DNA of 64,000 bases from Candidatus Hermodarchaeota archaeon (GTDB lineage Archaea; Asgardarchaeota; Lokiarchaeia; Sigyniarchaeales; SOKP01), in assembly GCA_048885535.1 (NCBI GenBank), contig JBHLLO010000002.1, forward strand, positions 16,952-80,951. Direction: 5' to 3'. The notes under the pieces were generated by a model, which was given only the letters and a program-made list of their open reading frames with translations, had not been told where the DNA came from and ran no database searches. Position numbers and translations under genes: made by a program. Every line of letters begins with the position of its first letter. The first letter of the stretch is position 1. Shown here in pieces: positions 13,673 to 26,824 of the stretch.

Positions 13673-14710
13673 CTAACTATTTTCAAAATGCTTTTTATAC
13701 TTTTTATATTCTTTCTCTTTTTTGCTTTTTCTTTCACGAATTAAATCTAAAGGATCTTTATTTTCATCCTCTTCTTTATATTTCTTATCATTGAAAGAAT
13801 TTTCAAATTGAGATTTAAATTTCTCAATTTTTTTCGAAATATCTTCGGGTATTTCAATTTTTTTTTTGCTCTTTTGCTTAATGGAAACTTCATCTAACTT
13901 TTCTCTTTTTTTTCTACGTCTTAATCTTTCGAATTCCCCATTAGATAAAACAAGGTAATTTTCATAAGCCTCTTGCTGTTCTTGTTGCTTTTTCTTTAAT
14001 TTATCAATCTCTTCTTTTTCTATGCTTTTCTGGATTAGATCACTTTTCATTCTTAAATCTTCAGCGGAAAGACTATTTTCCATTTCATGAATAAATTGAA
14101 AGAATGTTAAGTTTGGATCTTCCAAAAACTTTTGTTTATATTGTTCTATTAACTGTTTGTCAGTATTTGGGGGAATTTGGTTTAAATTTTTATTAAGTTT
14201 TTTATTAATTAAGATTTTGTAAAATTTCGAGGCTTTTTTTATAGTTCTCAAAAAGATTGAATACTGATTTAATGATTCGGTTATATCTATCCATTCATTT
14301 AGCCCTACAGAAGGAATAAATGATATTTTCCCAATAATTTTGGATACGCTTTTAGTTTCTATTAGATTTACTCCGATTTTTTTTGTAATATTTTCATCGA
14401 GTTTTACGACCATTAGTTTTTGTTTAACACTTTCTTTATATTTCTTTATTAAACTATCCTTGTAAAATTGGTGTAGATTTAAGTTTTCTTTTAAAGCCTT
14501 ATTTAACTGTTCGTTTATGTTTTTTATGATTTCTAGTAATTCTTCATACTGATTAATAATGTTATCTTTAATAAACACTTCTGTGAGAGTGGTTTTTTTT
14601 TCCATCACTTTTCTTTTAATTTCATTTAATCTATTAAGATTAATTTGAAGATCTTCAATGGGAGAGCTAAATTCCTTAATTTTTTCAAGATTAAATAATG
14701 ATGGTTTCAT
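13673..14710 (-). CDS. Hypothetical coiled-coil protein with lysine-rich tail
   Basis: 345 aa. The N-terminal KEFSSPIEDLQINLNRL...IINQYEELLEII is faintly reminiscent of the ScpA/kleisin N-terminus (FEGPLDLLLHLI...QYLEYL). The C-terminal third is K/E low-complexity sequence. Confidence 0.65.
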   Translation of the reverse strand: MKPSLFNLEKIKEFSSPIEDLQINLNRLNEIKRKVMEKKTTLTEVFIKDNIINQYEELLEIIKNINEQLNKALKENLNLHQFYKDSLIKKYKESVKQKLMVVKLDENITKKIGVNLIETKSVSKIIGKISFIPSVGLNEWIDITESLNQYSIFLRTIKKASKFYKILINKKLNKNLNQIPPNTDKQLIEQYKQKFLEDPNLTFFQFIHEMENSLSAEDLRMKSDLIQKSIEKEEIDKLKKKQQEQQEAYENYLVLSNGEFERLRRRKKREKLDEVSIKQKSKKKIEIPEDISKKIEKFKSQFENSFNDKKYKEEDENKDPLDLIRERKSKKEKEYKKYKKHFENS

Positions 14711-15892: not shown

Positions 15893-17209
15893 TTAATTAT
15901 TTTTTCTTTCTTTTTCAAATTTTTCACAATATTCTGCAATCTCAGATATAAGGTTTTTCAGATTATCTATTTCAGCGCCCATAAAATTAAAAATTTCCTT
16001 TCTATATTGGGGTGAATCTCTGATTTTCATTTTATCTAATCCTAGATAATTTGGAAAACAAATTAATTTCATTAAATAAGGAAGGACCTTCTCATTTGTT
16101 TGTAAATCTTTAAATATAGGATAAAAAATATTTTCATCAGACAGTTTCCATTTTAAAATCCCCATATAAATTAGGAAAGCAAAATTCATTGAGATCCAAT
16201 TAATTAATTCTTTTGATAAAAAACCACGCCTTTGGGAAGCAAAAGCCAAGTAATAGAGAAATAATGTCTCATTACTAAACTGTGGATATAATCGTAAAAT
16301 TCCATCTGATTGTTTATTTTCACGTAAAAAATTATTATCAATTAATATATTTACAAGATCTTCATTAGGGGCCAAAAAAAGATTATCTATTAAACGCAAG
16401 CCTATTCGTTCAACGATACTTTGTATTGCTTCTTCTTCAGCACTTGCAATCGAATCAATATAAGGTAGAAAAACGTCAACTTTTAATATCATTGGAAGCT
16501 CATAATTATCTTTTTCTGGATATGCCCCAAAATTCGGATCGAGATTAAAAAGTGAAGTTATATTATTTAAAATTTGAGATACCTTAGGTGATAAGGAGGG
16601 GATTTCAAAAACATCTGTATTTTCTAATTTCTCTCTATAATAGGTGTGTGATTGTATAATATGGCGTTGACAATCAAAAAAATTTTGAGAAAATCTTAAT
16701 AACTTTTCATAAATGAATTTTAAATTTGCTCCTCTTGGAAATAATCTTTCTTCGATAAATTTTACTAAATTGAATAAATATGTAATTTCTAGATTTCTTT
16801 CATCTGGATTTGTGATGTGCCTTAAAATATTTAAAGCATCTATGGATTCATAAAGAAAATCTACAATGTAATCTTTAATATCAATTATAGGTATTTCATT
16901 TCTATATTTCATAATAAAATCCTTAATAATTTCATAAACATTTGTTCTATACATTGCTGAGAATTCTGATAATGCTCTTACCTTCCGAATATTTCTTTTT
17001 TCTTCCTCTTGGCGAATTTTATCTAAAATTTCAGTATCTAGTAAAAGGTCTGCATCTAAATCGATAATAATTCTCCGAGTCTCTCTAAGGATTGGTCTCA
17101 TATGACTAATAAAAGTCAAATACCTTGGAAGTAAATCTGTCCATTTTTCTCTTTTTCTTCCTGGTTTTACTGTTCTCGTTGATTTCTTTTTATAACTTAT
17201 TCCAATCAC
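15893..17209 (-). CDS. Hypothetical all-alpha protein, 438 aa
   Basis: A long ORF with a basic N-terminus (KKKSTRTVKPGRKREK). No motif was recognised. It sits 8 nt from the upstream gene and about 20 nt from the AAA+ reading frame. Confidence 0.7.
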   Translation of the reverse strand: MIGISYKKKSTRTVKPGRKREKWTDLLPRYLTFISHMRPILRETRRIIIDLDADLLLDTEILDKIRQEEEKRNIRKVRALSEFSAMYRTNVYEIIKDFIMKYRNEIPIIDIKDYIVDFLYESIDALNILRHITNPDERNLEITYLFNLVKFIEERLFPRGANLKFIYEKLLRFSQNFFDCQRHIIQSHTYYREKLENTDVFEIPSLSPKVSQILNNITSLFNLDPNFGAYPEKDNYELPMILKVDVFLPYIDSIASAEEEAIQSIVERIGLRLIDNLFLAPNEDLVNILIDNNFLRENKQSDGILRLYPQFSNETLFLYYLAFASQRRGFLSKELINWISMNFAFLIYMGILKWKLSDENIFYPIFKDLQTNEKVLPYLMKLICFPNYLGLDKMKIRDSPQYRKEIFNFMGAEIDNLKNLISEIAEYCEKFEKERKNN

Positions 17210-17217
17210 CTAGATTA

Positions 17218-18357
17218 TCATTCTTCTTTATATCCTACTAATATTTCAGTTAAAATATTTCCTATACTAATGAATATAGGTATTTCTACTCTAACTAATT
17301 GTCCAAGGATCCATTTATTAACATCTTTGATTAAAAATCGTATTTGATTTATTATTTTTTTATTCACTTCAGAATCTATTATTTTCGACATCCATAAGCC
17401 ACCCCCTAACCTATATGCAACTATTTTAATAAGAGGAGCGAATAAGAATTCCAATACCTGCTTCATCATCCATGACTTTGGAATTATACTCATATTCGAC
17501 TCATCAAAATTTGGATCATTTAAGATAGGGCTTGTTTCATCAACTGTAATCTTTGGTAAAAAACTTAATAGCAATATTAAAGCAAATATCGCAGAGATCC
17601 CATTAATAGTATAAGTTCCTCCAATCTTTTCTATATCATCCCGATTAATTGCTATATTAGCTAAGAACATACAAATAAACACGTTTCTATCGAATTCTTC
17701 AGAAACATAAGCATAACCTAATTCTTCATCGATTGATAAATATTTCTCCTCTAGAATTTTAATTATATCATCAGGAAAAGTGTAAAAAGTATATATTCTT
17801 TTTTGACTAGATCTGATATCTTTTTCTACAATAAGTTCTTTTGATATTAAACCAAACATATCTATAAGTTCTTCAAGTTGCTTTTTCACATAATGTTTAG
17901 GTTTATTAGGATTTCCAAACATAGCATAGAATTGATGATCTACAATATGAAAGTCATTTCTCTTACTAAATGCTTCAACCATTCTATCTATTATTGGTCC
18001 TTGAGTTCCAGTTGCTATTGCCTTTGCTTTAGAAGTTACAAATCCATTTAACAATTCGTTAATAATGAAGTCTTGTTCATGAGTTCTTGACTTTAAAATT
18101 TTTTTAAAAGCTTCTGAAAAATTCTTTGTATTTGGAAAAAAAGTATTTTGAATCTTATCATTAATAGATTTTATAAATATCTCTCCATTATTTTTAGGAA
18201 AAATAAGTTTCATATCATTCAATCGTTGTATTAAAGCTACTTTAGCACCTGGAATGTTCTCAATATCTCTATTTTCAAGGCGCTCTATTGCATTTTCTAA
18301 ACTCTTCTCAAAATCTAAAAGCAATTCTTTCCAATTTGGGTCTTGAACTTCAGACAT
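17218..18357 (-). CDS. Hypothetical protein, 379 aa, with a predicted membrane segment
   Basis: Hydrophobic stretches are INGISAIFALILLLSFLP and a C-terminal IPIFISIGNILTEILVG. No family was recognised. Confidence 0.7.
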   Translation of the reverse strand: MSEVQDPNWKELLLDFEKSLENAIERLENRDIENIPGAKVALIQRLNDMKLIFPKNNGEIFIKSINDKIQNTFFPNTKNFSEAFKKILKSRTHEQDFIINELLNGFVTSKAKAIATGTQGPIIDRMVEAFSKRNDFHIVDHQFYAMFGNPNKPKHYVKKQLEELIDMFGLISKELIVEKDIRSSQKRIYTFYTFPDDIIKILEEKYLSIDEELGYAYVSEEFDRNVFICMFLANIAINRDDIEKIGGTYTINGISAIFALILLLSFLPKITVDETSPILNDPNFDESNMSIIPKSWMMKQVLEFLFAPLIKIVAYRLGGGLWMSKIIDSEVNKKIINQIRFLIKDVNKWILGQLVRVEIPIFISIGNILTEILVGYKEE

Positions 18358-18378
18358 TTTTTAAATTATTTTTTAAAT

Positions 18379-19338
18379 TTAATCAATATTCCAATTCATT
18401 TCTATAGATACTTTATTTAGAGCATTTATTAGAGGTTTTATTAACTTTTTATCAAAAATGTTAGGGGAAGCCATACCTTTCTGAGTTTTCCAACCCATTT
18501 GAACACCCTCACCCATTTCTCTTTTACCAAATTTAATGAAATTAGTTAGATCTCGAACCCACCAATAAAATCTTAACCACTTTTTGTTTGGATTATCTTT
18601 GGAATAGATAATTGCGAGAGCTTTCCATTCTCCAACTAGCCACTTTACTGTAATACCACTTATAGGCATGTAATAATTAATTGGAAAGTTACTATGAAAA
18701 CTTAGGTTTAGATCTGACGGTGGTATACTAAAAATCGGTTGATTATATCCCTCTAATATCACAATTTCAGAGCAATTTTGACAAATATAATGTGATTTAT
18801 TTTTCTCCATCTTATTCTGGCAATTCGGACATGTTCGATTCTCAATAATTCGGGCTTTAATTATATCTAAATTTCTTTCTTTTTCTAATTCCTCCTTAGT
18901 TTTTTGTTTAGATTTACCATATTTTCCCCTCCAGTTCCAATTTTCATCGAAAGCATCATCGATCTTTTTTAAAGCAATGATAATATTTCTAAGGACTTCT
19001 CTATTATAAATTTTAATTAATCCAGCATGTTGATAATTTTTCCACCATGACAATCTTATATATCTTTCTTTATATGAACTTTCACAAATTAAAACCGCCA
19101 TAACGTAATTAGAAGTTTTGGAAACAACTATTCCCTTTTCACAAACTTCGAAATCTTTATTCAAACTAAGATTTTTATGAAAATATTCACCATCTTGAAA
19201 CTCACCCTCCGCAATCACTTTTTTTTGTTCTTCTTCAACTTTTTCATCGGAATGCTTTAATATTTTTCTGCATTGAGGACATTGAAATATTCCAGCAACT
19301 AAAGGTTCCATATTAATATTACATGAAGGGCATTTCAA
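18379..19338 (-). CDS. Hypothetical protein with two copies of a [zinc ribbon + WW-motif domain] module
   Basis: Half 1 reads CPSC..CPQC ... VMAVLICESSYKERYIRLSWWKNY ... IIIALKKIDDAFDENWNW. Half 2 reads CPNC..CQNC ... ALAIIYSKDNPNKKWLRFYWWVRD ... LINALNKVSIEMNWN. Confidence 0.7.
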   Translation of the reverse strand: MKCPSCNINMEPLVAGIFQCPQCRKILKHSDEKVEEEQKKVIAEGEFQDGEYFHKNLSLNKDFEVCEKGIVVSKTSNYVMAVLICESSYKERYIRLSWWKNYQHAGLIKIYNREVLRNIIIALKKIDDAFDENWNWRGKYGKSKQKTKEELEKERNLDIIKARIIENRTCPNCQNKMEKNKSHYICQNCSEIVILEGYNQPIFSIPPSDLNLSFHSNFPINYYMPISGITVKWLVGEWKALAIIYSKDNPNKKWLRFYWWVRDLTNFIKFGKREMGEGVQMGWKTQKGMASPNIFDKKLIKPLINALNKVSIEMNWNID

Positions 19339-19340
19339 AA

Positions 19341-20441
19341 TTAATCATCACTCCCTATAATGATAGCTCTCTCATAATCTAGATTTAAAAGTTTAATATC
19401 TTTTTGGGATAGTTTAGAAATTTCATTATTAATTTCAACCAATTTTTCTCGAAGAGATAATAAAGATTCTTGAATTTCGTCAACAATATTTTCCTCATTA
19501 TATGAGACTTTTTCAATGAAGTTTAGATAACTATGTTTCCTACCCTTACCAGTGTAAATTCTTTTGATATCTACTAGATTTTTCTCAATATCATTTAATT
19601 TAAAACTAAAATTTAGCAACTCAAGTAAAGTCGATTTCCATTGTAAAAATAATTCGTTTTCTGAATCTATTTTTTCAAAATTAAATTTTTCTGGGAGTGT
19701 AATTTTATGATCTTTGAGATAGTTAAAGATTTCCATGCTTTCTTCTATTGCTTTATATATTTTAGTCAAAACGGTTTTACTATTTAATATGGGTTCGAAA
19801 ATGCTTATAAGTTTAGTGGTTTTATCTTGAATTTCTTTAAATCTTTTGAAAAACCCCTCTATTGTCATTTCTATTTTTACAGCGTGATACACATTACCAA
19901 ATTGATCTAAAATATAATATAAATCATCAGATAAAGCATAATCATGATCTCCGATTTCATATATTAAAGAATGGATAACATTGGTAGATTCGCATCTTAC
20001 ACTCTTTAATTTAGTAAGAGCTAAATTGAAATTTCTTCTTAATATCGATTTGAATTTTTTATTTAACATTAGAAAGAGAGTATCATCTGGCACAGATATT
20101 GCATTTTTTTCAACTGTAATTGTTTCTTCCCCTAATTTTATAATGAAATCATCTTCCTTTCTATCAAATTCTCTTAAGGTTCGAATATTTTTGAATAATC
20201 CTAAGTCAATTGCAATCTCAATAAATTCGTTTGACCAAAATTTTGTAATATTACTTTTATAAATGTCATCTAATATTAGTACCCTCTCATACGATTCTAT
20301 ACGACTTTTTTCTTTCAAATCTTTAAATAAATCATTCCTGATAACATAAAGAAACAATATGATATATCTCGTATCCAGATCGTCAAGGATTTTTTCAATT
20401 AAATTCCTATCGTGCTCTAATGATAAATCTCTATGTTCCAT
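19341..20441 (-). CDS. Hypothetical protein, 366 aa; first gene of the cluster
   Basis: A long ORF lying 2 nt upstream of the next gene. It is helical with a coiled-coil C-terminus. No family was recognised. Confidence 0.7.
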   Translation of the reverse strand: MEHRDLSLEHDRNLIEKILDDLDTRYIILFLYVIRNDLFKDLKEKSRIESYERVLILDDIYKSNITKFWSNEFIEIAIDLGLFKNIRTLREFDRKEDDFIIKLGEETITVEKNAISVPDDTLFLMLNKKFKSILRRNFNLALTKLKSVRCESTNVIHSLIYEIGDHDYALSDDLYYILDQFGNVYHAVKIEMTIEGFFKRFKEIQDKTTKLISIFEPILNSKTVLTKIYKAIEESMEIFNYLKDHKITLPEKFNFEKIDSENELFLQWKSTLLELLNFSFKLNDIEKNLVDIKRIYTGKGRKHSYLNFIEKVSYNEENIVDEIQESLLSLREKLVEINNEISKLSQKDIKLLNLDYERAIIIGSDD

Positions 20442-20633
20442 GCCTAAAATCCACTAATTATGTTAAAATTATTATAATTCTTTCAGTTAAAAAGAGTAAT
20501 TAACAGAATTAAACATTCCTAAAAAATCTTACGATTTCCTCTAAATTTAAATCAAAAAGAAAAAATTTTTTAGATTTGATTCCTAATTTCATAATAAAGT
20601 AGATTAAGAAAAATTCAATCATAATGATTTCAT

Positions 20634-21215
20634 ATGGGAAGAAGAAAAAGAAAACAACAGACATATAAAAGAGTTAAGAAAGTACCAAAAATATTTACTT
20701 GTCCTTCATGTGGAGAGAAGTCTGTAAAAGTTGAGGGGCTTAGAAAAGGCATAATTGCAACAGTTAAGTGTGGCTATTGTGGTTTAACAAAAGACGTATT
20801 AGTTAATTCAATATCAGAACCTGTTGACGCTTTTGGTGATTTTATTGATGTTTATTACGCTGATCAAGAAATGCAACGACTAGAGAGACGAGTTGAAAAG
20901 TTAAAAGAAGAAAATGCATGGGGTGAATTAGCTCTATGCTATTCAATTTTATCTGATCTTTGTAAAGTAAAGGCTGCGGAATTATTAGAAGATGAGGAGA
21001 ACACGGATTTAGATGAAGTTAATAATTGGAAGCTAAGATCAGAAGAGTATAAGAAAAAAGAAAAAGATGCTCTTCATCAACTAGATCTCCTTGAAATGGA
21101 AAAAGGTATAAAAACTGATGAAGAATCGCTATTTTCTGAACATGATGAGAGTAGTATAAAAAAGGAGAAAAAAATTGATGATATCTTTGATGATCCTGGG
21201 TTTTTAGAGTTCTAA
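20634..21215 (+). CDS. elf1: Transcription elongation factor Elf1 homologue with long acidic coiled-coil C-terminal extension
   Basis: The basic N-terminus MGRRKRKQQTYKRVKK is followed by FTCPSCGEKSVKVEG...ATVKCGYCGLTKDVLVNSISEPVDAFGDFIDVYY. This matches the Elf1 zinc-ribbon pattern F.CP.C...SV....C..C.....L.EP.DVY..WID. Confidence 0.7.
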   Translation: MGRRKRKQQTYKRVKKVPKIFTCPSCGEKSVKVEGLRKGIIATVKCGYCGLTKDVLVNSISEPVDAFGDFIDVYYADQEMQRLERRVEKLKEENAWGELALCYSILSDLCKVKAAELLEDEENTDLDEVNNWKLRSEEYKKKEKDALHQLDLLEMEKGIKTDEESLFSEHDESSIKKEKKIDDIFDDPGFLEF

Positions 21216-21223
21216 AATATAGA

Positions 21224-22930
21224 CTATTCTTTTAAGATTTTAGATTTGATATTCTGGGGGATATATTTCCATATTGGTAGTTTTAAAATAAAATCATAAA
21301 ACTTTTTCCGATTTAATTTATTTTTTAAAATAAAGTAACCCCAATTATAAAAAGCCAATCTATTGAAAAGGTGCATTAAATTTATACCAAATGGGTTATA
21401 TTTTGAAGTTAAAAAGCTTGCAATGTAAGCACCTAACCTTTTTGTATGTGGAATGGATTCTGGATAAATCGATTCGGACAGTGGTCTATTAAATATTTCA
21501 TAAATTGAAAATATTGGAATAAGTGCATCTAAAATTTTACTAACTTTGAGATCATAATTTTGACTATTAATAGAGTACATAGAGAGTTGATTTAGCTCTT
21601 TTATCGCAAAGTTAAAATAGCGTTCTTTGAAATTTAACCACATTTTTGCCATTAAATCCTTTATTTCAACTATTTCATTAAGGATCTCTTCTTCTTCAAA
21701 ATCAAAGCCATATTTTTTTTCATAATATTTTAGACATAATAAAAAAATCGAATCTATTGATTCATAGTTTAATTCTTCATCATTTTTCTTGCCTTGAATT
21801 AAATACTTCATTTCTTCATTTGTTAAAGGATGTAATGTATGAGTATATAGTGGAGTTGTCCATAATAGTTTCAAAATTTTTTCCATAACGTAGATATATA
21901 GGTTAAATTTCTCAATCTCAAAAAGTTTTTTAGAAGATTCAAGTATAGCCCATTTAAATCTTTTTGATCTATTGAAAAATAATTTTAGCTTATTATATCG
22001 GCTTAATCTACTTTTTAGATTTCTTTTTTCATTTTTATAGACTATAATTTTTTCAATTAAAATTTTTTTAAATGATATGAGTTTCTTAATATATGCATAA
22101 AAATCTATGTTATAGTTCTCATTCACTTTATCATGAGGAATTAAAGGAATATTTAATATTTTTTTAGGCGGAGTTAATTCAATACTCATAGAGTGATCTC
22201 CAATTGAATAGGAAAAGTAAATTTCTTGAAGAACTTCATCTAATGATCTAAAAGTCCCAAGATTTTTTGGATCTTTAGTAAAATATCCATGTAAAAGAGT
22301 ATCTATGCCTTTATAGACGTTGTTATTATATTCTGAGATAATTATTGACTCAAATTCCCCAGGGTGATGTCTTTTAATATTATATCTTTTGGATACTAAA
22401 AAGATTGCCTGGTTTGCTCTGTGGCATACAGTGTGACTCCATTTTAAAATTGGTTCCAAAATTTTTCCATAAGTCAATATATATCCATAGAATTCAGGAC
22501 CAAAATATATTGGAAAACCAAATCCACGAGATGTTGCAAATGTAAATTGAAAGAGGTGTCTTACTTTCTCCCCTTTTAATAATCCTGGGAATTTATAATG
22601 TAATACAAGCTTAGGATATAATGCATCACAACCTAGATTCATCCAAGCTTCGAATAAAATGAAACTATCAGGAAATTCCGACGAATCTCTATTGTAAATT
22701 AAATCACTCGTTAATGTATCTAAAGCCGATGGAAGTAAATAAAGCTTATCTCCTTTATAATTGATAGTTTCACGTATAAAAGGTTTTATTTGATTCTTTA
22801 TTTGAGCTTTTTTATAATAATAGCGATTCATTACTCTTATTAATGAAGGAATCTCTAAAATCTGCCTTTTGAGATCATGGGAAACTTTTATAGTAGAATA
22901 GCCTTGAATTTCATGTTTAGATTGCTCCAA
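21224..22930 (-). CDS. Hypothetical protein, 568 aa
   Basis: A long ORF rich in aromatic and lysine residues. No motif was recognised. It is convergent with elf1. Confidence 0.7.
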   Translation of the reverse strand: MEQSKHEIQGYSTIKVSHDLKRQILEIPSLIRVMNRYYYKKAQIKNQIKPFIRETINYKGDKLYLLPSALDTLTSDLIYNRDSSEFPDSFILFEAWMNLGCDALYPKLVLHYKFPGLLKGEKVRHLFQFTFATSRGFGFPIYFGPEFYGYILTYGKILEPILKWSHTVCHRANQAIFLVSKRYNIKRHHPGEFESIIISEYNNNVYKGIDTLLHGYFTKDPKNLGTFRSLDEVLQEIYFSYSIGDHSMSIELTPPKKILNIPLIPHDKVNENYNIDFYAYIKKLISFKKILIEKIIVYKNEKRNLKSRLSRYNKLKLFFNRSKRFKWAILESSKKLFEIEKFNLYIYVMEKILKLLWTTPLYTHTLHPLTNEEMKYLIQGKKNDEELNYESIDSIFLLCLKYYEKKYGFDFEEEEILNEIVEIKDLMAKMWLNFKERYFNFAIKELNQLSMYSINSQNYDLKVSKILDALIPIFSIYEIFNRPLSESIYPESIPHTKRLGAYIASFLTSKYNPFGINLMHLFNRLAFYNWGYFILKNKLNRKKFYDFILKLPIWKYIPQNIKSKILKE

Positions 22931-23069
22931 TTAACTCAGCTGTTAACTAGTCTTATAGTTTACTAATAATATTAAATGCTTATTTAATTATAATCTTAAT
23001 TAAAATTCGAAATAAGAGATAAGAGTTAATTGTTCCTAAATGTTAAAAGATTTTTAAGTGAAAATAAAA

Positions 23070-23534
23070 TTAACTTGGTGTTTTTCGTTTATTAAAAAGT
23101 TGTTTAAGTTCACTCATTATAGCTCCTCTCAAAGTTATTGGACTAGCAGGTCGAGCGGATCCTGGACCTCCAGGTGGACCTCCAGGGGGCGGTGGTGGAC
23201 CTCCAGGGGGTGGACGAGGACTTCCTGCAGGTGTACCACTGGGTGGACCTCCAGGGGGTGGAGGAGCACTATTTGGAGCTTTTGGTGCGGATACTATAGG
23301 CGCTACGGTACCTCCAGTTGACTTATAAATAGCTATTTCGTTACTCAATGTATTAACTTTAGTTTCTAATGTTGATAATTTTTGATGAATAGATGATAAT
23401 GATTGATCTACTAAATCAGGAATTCTAAGAATCATAGACATCATTCTTTCGACAATATCTCCGAAAGCATTTAACTTTTCTTCGAGAGGAGCCTTTCTAG
23501 TTTCTTGCATGAAATTTGCGAATTCTTCTGCCAT
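23070..23534 (-). CDS. Coiled-coil / polyproline / basic amphipathic-tail protein
   Basis: 154 aa. The N-terminal part is a heptad-like helix. The middle reads SAPPPPGGPPSGTPAGSPRPPPGGPPPPPGGPPGGPG. The C-terminus reads ITLRGAIMSELKQLFNKRKTPS. The coding strand was chosen because the opposite-strand ORF (23058..23321) is a W/S/R-rich mirror of the Pro/Gly codons. Confidence 0.75.
   Translation of the reverse strand: MAEEFANFMQETRKAPLEEKLNAFGDIVERMMSMILRIPDLVDQSLSSIHQKLSTLETKVNTLSNEIAIYKSTGGTVAPIVSAPKAPNSAPPPPGGPPSGTPAGSPRPPPGGPPPPPGGPPGGPGSARPASPITLRGAIMSELKQLFNKRKTPS
23164..23258. repeat. GC-rich imperfect tandem repeat (4 copies of GGACCTCCAGG within GGTGGACCTCCAGGGGG-like units)
   Basis: Copies are seen at 23164, 23176, 23197 and 23244. 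The repeat encodes the PPGGPP tracts on the minus strand and forms a sharp GC island in otherwise AT-rich DNA. Confidence 0.8.
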
Positions 23535-23676: not shown

Positions 23677-24309
23677 TTAACTTGATTTTGATACAGAATC
23701 TTTTATAACCATCCACAATTCATCTAATTCATTTCTCACTTCTAAAAATTGATGAATTTTTTTCAATAATACATCTCTAGCTATATCAAAGTCTCTTTGA
23801 TAATCATTGAATTCTGCATCTAAAATTTTAAGTTTTTCCCCTTCAATTAGTTTATTTTTCATTTTTTCAACATTTAGAGCCTTTTTAATGACTGCATTTC
23901 TTTTATTGGCTACTTCATTTAACGCATCTGCAAATTCTATTTTTTTCTCAATAAAATATTCTTTCTTCAAAGCAAGGTTTTTAATTGCATCTATGTATTT
24001 ATTATTCACTGCTATATATCCATCATTTTTACGAATGATATCTAAATATAAATTTATCTCTTCTTCTTGAATATTTGATTTTTTCTCTCTTACTAAAGTT
24101 TGCATTTGTTTAATTACGTCTCTAAAAGTCCGATTTAACATTTCTCTTCCTAAATTTGCTTTAGTAAGATTTTCTGCATATTTTTTTTGAGCATTGATAA
24201 GATCATATTGAGCTTTTGCCAGTTTTCTTATTTGATTGACTAACTCTTTCTCTGTTCCTGCTAATTCAAGCTCATCCTCATGCGTAATAATAGGGCTCAT
24301 TTTTATCAA
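23677..24309 (-). CDS. Hypothetical all-helical coiled-coil protein, 210 aa
   Basis: Heptad-rich K/E/N sequence throughout. No family could be assigned by eye. Confidence 0.65.
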   Translation of the reverse strand: MIKMSPIITHEDELELAGTEKELVNQIRKLAKAQYDLINAQKKYAENLTKANLGREMLNRTFRDVIKQMQTLVREKKSNIQEEEINLYLDIIRKNDGYIAVNNKYIDAIKNLALKKEYFIEKKIEFADALNEVANKRNAVIKKALNVEKMKNKLIEGEKLKILDAEFNDYQRDFDIARDVLLKKIHQFLEVRNELDELWMVIKDSVSKSS

Positions 24310-26671: not shown

Positions 26672-26824
26672 TTATTCTTTTTCTCCTAAGGCTTCCCTAA
26701 TTTTTTCAAGTTCTTCCATTCTTTTCTTCTTTTCTTCTTCCCTTTTTCTCAGTTCTTCCACACTAACCTTTTGGAGAGTGACTCCCTTCTTAATCTCATC
26801 TTGTAACTCTTTATCAATTGGCAT
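26672..26824 (-). CDS. Unlisted 50 aa ORF with WH2-like N-terminal motif and K/E-rich helix
   Basis: Below the ORF-track size cutoff. My translation is MPIDKELQDEIKKGVTLQKVSVEELRKREEEKKKRMEELEKIREALGEKE, followed by TAA. AAGGAG lies 10 nt upstream of the ATG. Confidence 0.5.
   Translation of the reverse strand: MPIDKELQDEIKKGVTLQKVSVEELRKREEEKKKRMEELEKIREALGEKE

What the first reader, a model, noticed from the sequence alone, without database searches (positions are those of the whole stretch)
23070..23534. Coiled-coil + polyproline + WH2-like basic tail: an actin-regulator-like architecture encoded by a GC-rich repeat island
This 154 aa protein has three parts. The first is an N-terminal heptad helix that could mediate oligomerisation. 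The second is a 40-residue tract, SAPPPPGGPPSGTPAGSPRPPPGGPPPPPGGPPGGPG, the kind of polyproline that eukaryotic profilins and SH3/EVH1 domains bind. The third is a C-terminal RGAIMSELKQLFNKRKT, whose hydrophobic triad followed by a basic cluster resembles a WH2 or G-actin-binding motif (ALLxxI...LKK). Polyproline followed by WH2 is the core logic of WASP/WAVE/VASP-type actin regulators. At the DNA level the tract is four imperfect copies of GGACCTCCAGG (23164-23258). That arrangement is prone to slippage, so tract length may vary between strains. The WH2-like small ORF lies only about 3 kb away.
Basis: partly seen in the sequence, partly recalled or inferred. Interest (0 to 1): 0.65.

Follow-up and report, generated by a model that had tools for sequence, protein, structure and literature searches.

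The report
Conserved Asgard coiled-coil, polyproline adaptor protein
This is a real, strongly conserved but undescribed small protein of Asgard archaea (the closest known prokaryotic relatives of eukaryotes). It has a coiled-coil head, a proline-rich linker of variable length and a conserved tail helix; indirect evidence links it to the actin system, but the tail is not a WH2 motif.

Summary
A 154-aa minus-strand ORF (23070-23534) encodes a heptad coiled-coil head, a Pro/Gly tract built on four exact GGACCTCCAGG repeats, and a basic C-terminal helix. It is a real gene: about 200 homologues were found, all in Asgard archaea and all annotated hypothetical, and all three parts are conserved.

The WH2 reading of the tail fails. 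Pfam WH2 matches 0 of 43 family tails, while control WH2 peptides score E 1e-8 to 1e-14. Family tail profiles find no solved WH2 chain.

An actin link still gets indirect support. The same head domain occurs in one polypeptide with a Ras GTPase and two gelsolin domains. The always-adjacent 207-aa gene folds into a BAR-like three-helix bundle (weak statistics). The conserved 50-aa ORF 3 kb away does retrieve N-WASP and MIM WH2 chains.

No binding to actin or profilin could be tested, and published Loki profilins did not bind polyproline.

Best reading: an oligomeric tether-and-motif adaptor, probably in the actin/membrane system. It resembles Ena/VASP or WAVE in logic but is not a member of those families. 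Moderate confidence; high interest if confirmed.

The parts
23070..23534 (-). Complete gene: 154 codons plus stop
   Evidence: ORF list and translation. A 100% identical protein exists in a public MAG, with about 200 homologues.
23319..23534 (-). N-domain, residues 1-72: short helix 2-14 plus long helix 17-72. Heptad coiled coil with the conserved signature AEEFxxF...P.EEKLNxFGDIVE.MM...LRIPDLVDQSL
   Evidence: AF2 gives pLDDT above 90 for residues 21-70. Invariant columns are listed. 3.5-residue periodicity beats all 2000 shuffles. The profile finds 124 cluster representatives.
23133..23318 (-). Disordered linker, residues 73-134. Its Pro/Gly-rich core is residues 91-125 (23160-23264)
   Evidence: AF2 pLDDT is below 50 here. 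The tract is 36-62 aa in 77 orthologues and varies by GGPP units. The median longest proline run is 5, range 2-7.
23164..23255 (.). Four exact copies of GGACCTCCAGG (at 23164, 23176, 23197, 23245), which encode PGGP/GGPP units on the minus strand
   Evidence: GC3 is 0.16 against GC1/2 of 0.80/0.91.
23082..23153 (-). C-motif, residues 128-151: RPASPITLRGAIMSELKQLFNKRK. The predicted helix is residues 135-151 (23082-23132)
   Evidence: P132, L135, R136, G137, A138, I139, E142, L143, K144, L146 and F147 are invariant in 35 sequences. E142 and L143 are invariant across 43 distant members. AF2 predicts a helix with pLDDT 71-80.
23680..24300 (-). Context: the up207 gene, always immediately upstream. 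207 aa, predicted BAR-like three-helix bundle
   Evidence: Present in 70 of 70 loci that include upstream DNA. A homologue lies 2 kb away in the distant locus L091. AF2 gives pLDDT 87 and pTM 0.70. Foldseek top hits are BAR domains, best E 3.6e-3.
26672..26824 (-). Context: conserved 50-aa ORF with a WH2-like N-terminal half (ELxxEIKKGVxLQKV)
   Evidence: 33 orthologues. The profile's top PDB hit is the N-WASP WH2 construct 3m3n_W (E 9.4e-4), with 2vcp_D and MIM 2d1k_C also hit. There is no Pfam WH2 hit.
20634..21215 (+). Context: Elf1-like zinc-ribbon protein with a long C-terminal extension. It is again adjacent to the family gene in a distant lineage
   Evidence: Pfam E 2e-18. The homologue is 36% identical with a shared GFLEF C-terminus.

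Best explanation
The gene encodes a cytoplasmic adaptor protein specific to Asgard archaea, built as anchor, tether and motif.

Shown:
- An N-terminal coiled-coil module of about 70 residues with a highly conserved face.
- A disordered Pro/Gly linker whose length changes by slippage of a 12-bp GGPP unit.
- A C-terminal basic helix conserved at the residue level, as expected for a specific protein-binding short linear motif.

Inferred:
- The coiled coil oligomerises or docks the protein, so that several flexible arms each present a proline tract and a tail helix.
- The system it serves is most likely the actin/membrane-remodelling machinery. In that case it would concentrate actin, or an actin-associated partner, in the way oligomeric Ena/VASP or the WAVE coiled coil with its Pro-rich and C-terminal helices do.

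It is an analogue in logic, not a member of the WH2, Ena/VASP or WASP/WAVE families.
For: Architecture and conservation:
- About 200 homologues, all from Asgard MAGs.
- All three parts conserved, down to about 25-30% identity.
- AF2 predicts helix 17-72 with pLDDT above 90, a disordered 73-134 and helix 135-151.
- Strong heptad periodicity.

Actin link:
- The N-domain core (profile positions 17-68) occurs at residues 320-371 of P0488 (73 bits).
- The same polypeptide carries a Ras GTPase (E 2e-38) and a gelsolin repeat that scores 33.8 bits, above Pfam's 21-bit cutoff.
- It also carries a second gelsolin domain, which matches the Loki 2DGel structure 7whg_G at E 9e-11.
- P0153 and P0489 are similar fusions.
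- The P0137 gene overlaps an upstream Ras/Arf GTPase gene, operon-like.
- Other relatives are fused to Ras or LRR domains.

Neighbours:
- The adjacent up207 gene is BAR-like.
- The 50-aa ORF 3 kb away retrieves WH2-actin complex chains.

Other:
- The proline tract has the GPPPPPGG form and is the only proline run in 64 kb.
- The literature lists only profilin and gelsolin as Asgard actin regulators and says assembly machinery is undiscovered (PMC7444086, PMC9433394, PMC12993045).
Against: - No binding to actin, profilin or membrane was tested.
- The tail fails every WH2 test.
- Loki profilins are reported not to bind VASP polyproline, and Heimdall and Thor profilins bind only weakly (PMC8410842).
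- The N-domain is also fused to winged-helix, zinc-ribbon and LRR modules, so gelsolin is one partner among several. The gelsolin fusions lack the tail motif.
- The surrounding block is mostly housekeeping genes and is collinear in all 80 loci, so adjacency has little weight.
- The BAR-like match is weak (no hit at E of 0.001 or better) and the fold is simple.
- The proline tract is not universal.
Confidence: 0.38

Rival explanations
1. The proline tract recruits profilin-actin and the tail is a WH2 motif that binds G-actin in the cleft between subdomains 1 and 3. This would make the protein a minimal WASP/VASP-type elongation factor.
For: The GPPPPPGG-type tract is conserved in most orthologues. 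By eye, the tail begins RGAIMSEL, like RGALLDQI of WASP. Oligomerising head. Gelsolin fusions exist.
Against: Pfam WH2 matches 0 of 43 tails, while control WH2 peptides score 34-51 bits. Tail profiles find no WH2 chain in the PDB. There is no LKKV/T at WH2 spacing; the sequence continues LFxKRK. Loki profilins did not bind polyproline (PMC8410842). Some members lack proline runs.
Confidence: 0.12
2. A hub-tether-peptide adaptor unrelated to actin. The coiled coil docks on an information-processing or other core complex, and the tail recruits a factor. The ribosomal stalk protein P1 and the FtsZ C-terminal peptide work this way.
For: The neighbourhood contains Pelota, radical-SAM enzymes, GNAT and Elf1. 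Elf1 adjacency recurs in a rearranged distant locus. Very high conservation is typical of core machinery. From memory, the LxxLF core of the tail resembles the archaeal P1 C-terminus (a lead only).
Against: Collinearity of the whole block makes adjacency uninformative. No homology to stalk or transcription factors was found. The domain fusions point to gelsolin and Ras rather than to translation or transcription.
Confidence: 0.25
3. A membrane-anchored spacer. The basic C-terminal helix inserts into the membrane like the MinD or FtsA targeting helices, the Pro/Gly linker sets a distance, and the coiled coil binds the BAR-like neighbour.
For: The tail has net charge +4 and hydrophobic residues I, M, L, L, F. 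up207 is adjacent and BAR-like.
Against: An invariant Glu and residue-level conservation are atypical for lipid-binding helices. The BAR assignment is weak.
Confidence: 0.15
4. A spurious ORF created by a low-complexity GC-rich repeat.
For: Repeat DNA, with alternative ORFs on the opposite strand.
Against: About 200 homologues with conserved non-repetitive head and tail. Codon-position GC pattern of a native coding region. The gene is syntenic in 80 loci.
Confidence: 0.01

Closest known systems
Ena/VASP proteins (EVH1, Pro-rich region, G-actin- and F-actin-binding motifs, tetramerising coiled coil)
   Same: An oligomerising coiled coil, a GPPPPP-type tract and a short basic helical motif on a flexible arm. 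Small overall logic of multivalent delivery.
   Different: The order is reversed, with the coiled coil at the N-terminus. There is no EVH1 domain. The tail does not match WH2/GAB profiles. No F-actin-binding motif was identified. No sequence homology was detected.
SCAR/WAVE (N-terminal coiled coil bundled with Abi and BRK1, Pro-rich region, V-C-A tail) and BRK1
   Same: The same N-to-C order: coiled coil, proline tract, C-terminal helix. Small-GTPase association of relatives. From memory, the tail resembles the WASP connector helix LVGALMHVMQKR at least as much as it resembles the WH2.
   Different: There is no acidic/Trp Arp2/3-binding motif; the tail is basic. BRK1 is hit only at E 0.18, beneath about 40 generic coiled coils.
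Asgard Ras-gelsolin-coiled-coil-gelsolin proteins (P0488, P0137, P0153, P0489)
   Same: True homology of the coiled-coil core (61-77 bits).
   Different: They lack helix 1, the Pro/Gly tract and the tail motif. Instead they carry gelsolin domains, a GTPase and a Zn knuckle.
Anchor-linker-peptide proteins (archaeal ribosomal stalk P1; FtsZ linker plus C-terminal peptide; MinD membrane-targeting helix)
   Same: A helical anchoring domain, a disordered linker of variable length and a conserved terminal peptide.
   Different: No sequence relationship. The linker is Pro/Gly-rich rather than Ala/Glu/Lys-rich. The tail is basic and only weakly amphipathic.
MIM/IRSp53-type I-BAR proteins (BAR domain, Pro-rich region, WH2)
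   Same: If the neighbours are taken together, a BAR-like bundle, a proline tract and a WH2-like peptide all lie within 4 kb.
   Different: Here they are separate genes, the BAR assignment is weak, and no interaction has been shown.

Membership tests
WH2 motif (Pfam PF02205) | Match to the curated WH2 profile | tested here: not met
   No hit at E up to 10 for the full protein, for the 31-aa tail or for 43 family tails. Control WH2 peptides from WASP, WAVE, WIP and N-WASP score E 1e-8 to 1e-14, and thymosin-beta4 scores 0.04.
WH2 motif (Pfam PF02205) | An LKKV/T-type element 5-7 residues after the amphipathic helix | tested here: not met
   The sequence reads IMSELKQLFNKRKT, and the family consensus is IMxELKxLFxKRK. 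There is no Leu-basic-basic-Val/Thr element at that spacing.
WH2 motif (Pfam PF02205) | Similarity to solved WH2 peptides bound to actin | tested here: not met
   Profiles A3 and A7 against 177,635 PDB sequences return no WH2 chain at E up to 10. The same test on the 50-aa neighbour returns three such chains.
WH2 motif (Pfam PF02205) | Binds G-actin in the cleft between subdomains 1 and 3 | not testable with these tools
Ena/VASP | EVH1 domain and EVH2 block (GAB, FAB, C-terminal tetramerisation helix) | tested here: not met
   No Pfam hit. The coiled coil is at the N-terminus.
WASP/WAVE nucleation-promoting factors | C-terminal acidic motif with a conserved Trp that binds Arp2/3 | tested here: not met
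   The tail ends KRKTPS and the family tails are basic.
WASP/WAVE nucleation-promoting factors | N-terminal homology to the WAVE homology domain or to BRK1 | tested here: inconclusive
   BRK1 (3p8c_E) scores E 0.18 and 15 bits, ranked below about 40 generic coiled coils. This cannot be told apart from heptad similarity.
Profilin-binding polyproline ligand | A run of about 5 or more prolines flanked by Gly/Ala/Leu (criterion from general knowledge of formin FH1 and VASP) | tested here: inconclusive
   Present in the window protein (GGPPPPPGG) and typical of orthologues (median longest run 5). The range is 2-7, and the tract is absent in several distant members. Binding was not testable. Loki profilins are reported negative (PMC8410842).
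Coiled coil | Continuous heptad pattern of core hydrophobic residues in a long helix | tested here: met
   Core positions 17, 21, 24, 28, 31, 35, 38, 42, 46, 49, 53, 56, 60, 63, 67 and 70. Power at period 3.5 beats 2000 of 2000 shuffles. AF2 helix 17-72. PDB hits are coiled coils.
Undescribed Asgard family (N-domain, linker, C-motif) | Full-length homology with a conserved head signature and tail motif | tested here: met
   E values from 8.5e-92 to 1e-38 over the 120 listed hits. Invariant columns. The tail motif is present in 167 of the 243 family and representative sequences scanned with a pattern.
BAR domain superfamily (for the up207 neighbour) | Three long helices matching solved BAR domains, with dimerisation into a curved six-helix bundle | tested here: inconclusive

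The most novel reading that the evidence does not exclude
This family, the WH2-like 50-aa protein and the BAR-like neighbour may be parts of the missing actin-assembly machinery of Asgard archaea. In this reading the protein is an oligomeric, small-GTPase-linked elongation or nucleation-promoting factor that uses a polyproline arm and a non-WH2 actin-binding helix. It would then be a prokaryotic analogue or precursor of VASP/WAVE-type regulators that predates eukaryotes.
Probability: 0.15. Interest if true: 0.9.

Novelty: new variant of a known kind. Interest (0 to 1): 0.62.

Why it matters
Asgard archaea have eukaryote-like actin, profilins and gelsolins, but no factor that promotes filament nucleation or elongation is known. 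The papers I read say this machinery "has yet to be discovered" (PMC9433394).

This is a small, soluble, highly conserved protein with the modular logic of eukaryotic assembly factors. Its head domain is also found in a Ras-gelsolin protein. That makes it a concrete and cheap candidate to test: a 154-aa recombinant protein in pyrene or TIRF actin assays.

A positive result would push regulated actin assembly, and perhaps its coupling to small GTPases and membrane-curvature proteins, back before eukaryogenesis. A negative result would still define a new Asgard-specific coiled-coil module and a new short linear motif.

Tried and rejected
1. BRK1/WAVE-head homology. The PDB profile search gave BRK1 at E 0.18, beneath many generic coiled coils. 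I rejected this as evidence.

2. Docking the tail onto Lokiactin with monomer AF2, using a natural-linker fusion.
- I fetched Asgard actins.
- Two MAFFT alignments mis-registered the tails onto actin's GGSILASL segment.

3. Family libraries. Pfam, NCBIfam and PDB sequence searches of the protein and its neighbours gave nothing above threshold.

4. Foldseek of the target model against the PDB gave no matches, as expected for an extended helix plus disorder.

6. Synteny as functional evidence. All 80 loci are collinear over more than 12 kb, so adjacency mostly reflects conservation across the clade. I used only the persistence of up207 and Elf1 in rearranged distant loci.

7. Horizontally acquired GC island. 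Rejected, because GC3 in the tract is 0.16.

8. Short-motif resemblances recalled from memory (WASP connector helix, MinD targeting helix, ribosomal P1 C-terminus, ESCRT MIM1). All fit about equally well, which shows that such resemblance has no power to discriminate.

Full report
**1. Observation.**

The window averages about 28% GC, but GC reaches 0.68 at 23150-23249.

The tract contains four exact copies of GGACCTCCAGG, at 23164, 23176, 23197 and 23245. TRF reports 12-bp and 21-bp units.

The GC island comes entirely from Pro (CCN) and Gly (GGN) codons. GC1/GC2 in the tract are 0.80/0.91, while GC3 is 0.16, as AT-biased as the rest of the gene. This is native coding DNA.

No other ORF in the 64 kb has a run of four or more prolines, a copy of the head domain or a copy of the tail motif.

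**2. It is a real, conserved gene of Asgard archaea.**

A search of 5.8 billion proteins found 197 homologues at E of 0.01 or better. All are 133-191 aa and all are annotated hypothetical. They come from MAGs labelled Hod-, Prometh-/Loki- and Thorarchaeota.

The surrounding genes fit an archaeon related to eukaryotes: Elf1, Pelota, fibrillarin/Nop5, PAN ATPase and NAC.

An alignment of 35 sequences shows three conserved parts:
- a head with invariant A2, E4, F5, F8, P16, E19, K20, F24, G25, E29, M32, L36 and D40;
- a Pro/Gly tract that varies in length;
- a tail, RPAsPvsLRGAIMxELKxLFxKR, with 11 invariant positions.

A profile of the head alone, searched against 1.84 billion representatives, found 124 clusters. 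Members down to roughly 25-30% identity keep the head, linker and tail plan. E142 and L143 are invariant in 43 distant tails.

**3. Anatomy.**

AF2 with the family alignment predicts a short helix at residues 2-14 and a long helix at 17-72 (pLDDT 91-97). Residues 73-134 are disordered. A terminal helix spans 135-151 (pLDDT 71-80).

Core hydrophobic residues follow an unbroken heptad pattern from L17 to Y70, and none of 2000 shuffles reaches the observed periodicity. The head profile hits parallel coiled coils in the PDB.

By inspection of the sequence there is no signal peptide or transmembrane segment, so the protein is cytoplasmic.

**4. The tract.**

In 77 orthologues taken from 80 metagenomic loci and four earlier contigs, the tract is 36-62 aa. 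Its DNA is 58-73% GC, against 26-38% for the head.

Close relatives with nearly identical flanks differ by whole GGPP units: L097, L098, L095 and L108 have 48, 52, 56 and 60 aa.

A P5 core (GGPPPPPGG) is typical, but the longest proline run ranges from 2 to 7. Several distant members have no Pro-rich tract at all and still keep the tail. The invariant property is therefore a flexible spacer, usually proline-rich.

**5. The tail is not a WH2.**

- Pfam WH2 (PF02205) gives no hit at E up to 10 for the protein, for its 31-aa tail or for any of 43 family tails.
- In the same tool, 31-aa WH2 peptides from WASP, WAVE, WIP and N-WASP score E 1e-8 to 1e-14, and thymosin-beta4 scores 0.04.
- Tail profiles searched against all PDB sequences return no WH2 chain.
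- The sequence has no LKKV/T element at WH2 spacing.
- The helix is only weakly amphipathic (hydrophobic moment 0.17), which also argues against a classical membrane-targeting helix.

Residue-level conservation, including an invariant Glu, fits a specific protein-binding short linear motif. The partner is unknown.

**6. Independent links to actin.**

Longer relatives carry the same coiled-coil core next to known actin-binding folds.
- P0137 matches the Lokiarchaeota 2DGel structure 7whg_G at E 9e-11, and eukaryotic gelsolins at about 1e-5.
- P0153 matches the Thor gelsolin-like domain 7c2f_B at E 4.5e-4.
- P0488 (560 aa), from the same 90% cluster as P0137, is a fuller version. It has a Ras GTPase at residues 5-163 (E 2e-38), then a gelsolin repeat at 217-287 (33.8 bits against a 21-bit cutoff). 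The head core follows at 320-371 (73 bits), then a second gelsolin domain and a Zn knuckle.
- Other relatives are fused to Ras or LRR domains.
- The P0137 gene overlaps an upstream Ras/Arf GTPase gene.

These fusions lack the tract and the tail. The head is also fused to winged-helix and zinc-ribbon modules. The link is therefore suggestive, not exclusive.

**7. Neighbours.**

All 80 loci are collinear. The order is NTP-transferase, radical SAM, GNAT, 50-aa ORF, Pelota, radical SAM, up207, this gene, an optional 568-aa gene, Elf1, then four unannotated genes. Adjacency alone therefore carries little weight.

Two linkages survive rearrangement. An up207 homologue (27% identity, E 7.5e-21) lies 2 kb from the family gene in L091. 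Elf1 is directly upstream in L089/L090.

up207 is exactly 207 aa in nearly all of the 120 listed homologues (of 512 found), which are 70-100% identical. It folds with confidence into three helices of about 70 residues each (pLDDT 87, pTM 0.70). Its best PDB matches are mostly BAR-superfamily domains: arfaptin, SNX1, IRSp53 and MIM I-BAR, endophilin, amphiphysin and F-BAR. The statistics are weak, with best E 3.6e-3 and TM 0.35-0.55. BAR homologues have been reported sparsely in Asgard archaea (PMC10307638).

Its profile's top hit among 177,635 PDB sequences is the N-WASP tandem-WH2 construct 3m3n_W (E 9.4e-4). N-WASP 2vcp_D and MIM 2d1k_C are also among only nine hits, and all three align on the WH2 core. 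Each repeat is weak on its own, and Pfam gives no hit. The WH2 label therefore fits that ORF better than it fits this tail.

**8. Literature.**

The papers I searched list only profilins and gelsolins as Asgard actin regulators. They state that nucleation machinery is undiscovered (PMC7444086, PMC9433394, PMC12993045).

They report that Loki and Odin profilins do not bind VASP polyproline, and that Heimdall LC3 and Thor profilins bind weakly, at about 0.3 mM (PMC8410842).

I found no description of this family. The library does not cover most subscription journals.

**9. Verdict.**

The architecture resembles Ena/VASP or WAVE in logic, and the protein family has indirect ties to gelsolin, small GTPases, a BAR-like neighbour and a WH2-like mini-protein. 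The tail is not a WH2, profilin recruitment is doubtful in Lokiarchaeia, and no interaction could be tested.

The most likely mechanism is an oligomeric anchor-tether-motif adaptor in the actin/membrane system (confidence about 0.38). The main rival is a similar adaptor serving an unrelated core complex (about 0.25).

Noticed in passing
window 26672-26824 (-): A conserved 50-aa ORF (consensus EL..EIKKGV.LQKVDEEE.KKREEEKKKRMEELEKVK.ALG in 33 orthologues). Its profile's top PDB hit is the N-WASP tandem-WH2 construct (E 9.4e-4), and N-WASP 2vcp_D and MIM WH2 2d1k_C are among only nine hits. Pfam WH2 is negative. It could be a free-standing WH2/thymosin-like peptide in an archaeon.
   Followed up: partly
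window 23680-24300 (-): The up207 protein is always adjacent, is exactly 207 aa in nearly all listed homologues and is 70-100% identical to them. AF2 predicts a three-helix bundle whose best structural matches are BAR, I-BAR and F-BAR domains, with weak statistics.
   Followed up: partly
P0488 (560 aa; relatives P0137, P0153, P0489); locus L093 3762-4562: A multidomain Asgard protein with a Ras GTPase, a gelsolin repeat, the coiled-coil core, a second gelsolin domain and a Zn knuckle. The shorter version is encoded just downstream of two Ras/Arf GTPase genes. It looks like a GTPase-coupled actin regulator and, as far as I found, is undescribed.
   Followed up: partly
window 20634-21215 (+); L089 6240-6857: The Elf1-like proteins here are 193-205 aa, with a long charged extension. 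The C-terminus (...GFLEF) is shared by the window copy and the one distant homologue compared. The gene stays next to the family gene in a rearranged distant lineage.
   Followed up: no
window 15893-22930 (-), plus 13673-14710: A run of unannotated genes (438, 379, 319 with Zn ribbons, 366 and 568 aa) has no Pfam or NCBIfam family above threshold. It is collinear in every one of the 80 loci that extends that far.
   Followed up: no
loci L007-L086: Probing GTDB genomes with human beta-actin returned many short contigs in bacterial assemblies that are 94-100% identical, which are probably eukaryotic contamination. It also returned 85-89% identical actin genes on long contigs or complete chromosomes of cyanobacteria (Microcoleus CP181291.1) and Myxococcota, which look like real transfers.
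   Followed up: no
(protein names): Identical or near-identical proteins are attributed to MAGs labelled Hodarchaeota, Promethearchaeota, Heimdallarchaeota, Thorarchaeota and Hermodarchaeota. The phylum labels on these MAG records are therefore not reliable guides to lineage.
   Followed up: no
window 23058-23321 (+), 23135-23269 (-), 23174-23299 (+): Three alternative-frame or opposite-strand ORFs of 41-87 aa lie inside the Pro/Gly repeat. They are by-products of the repeat composition and are not genes.
   Followed up: yes
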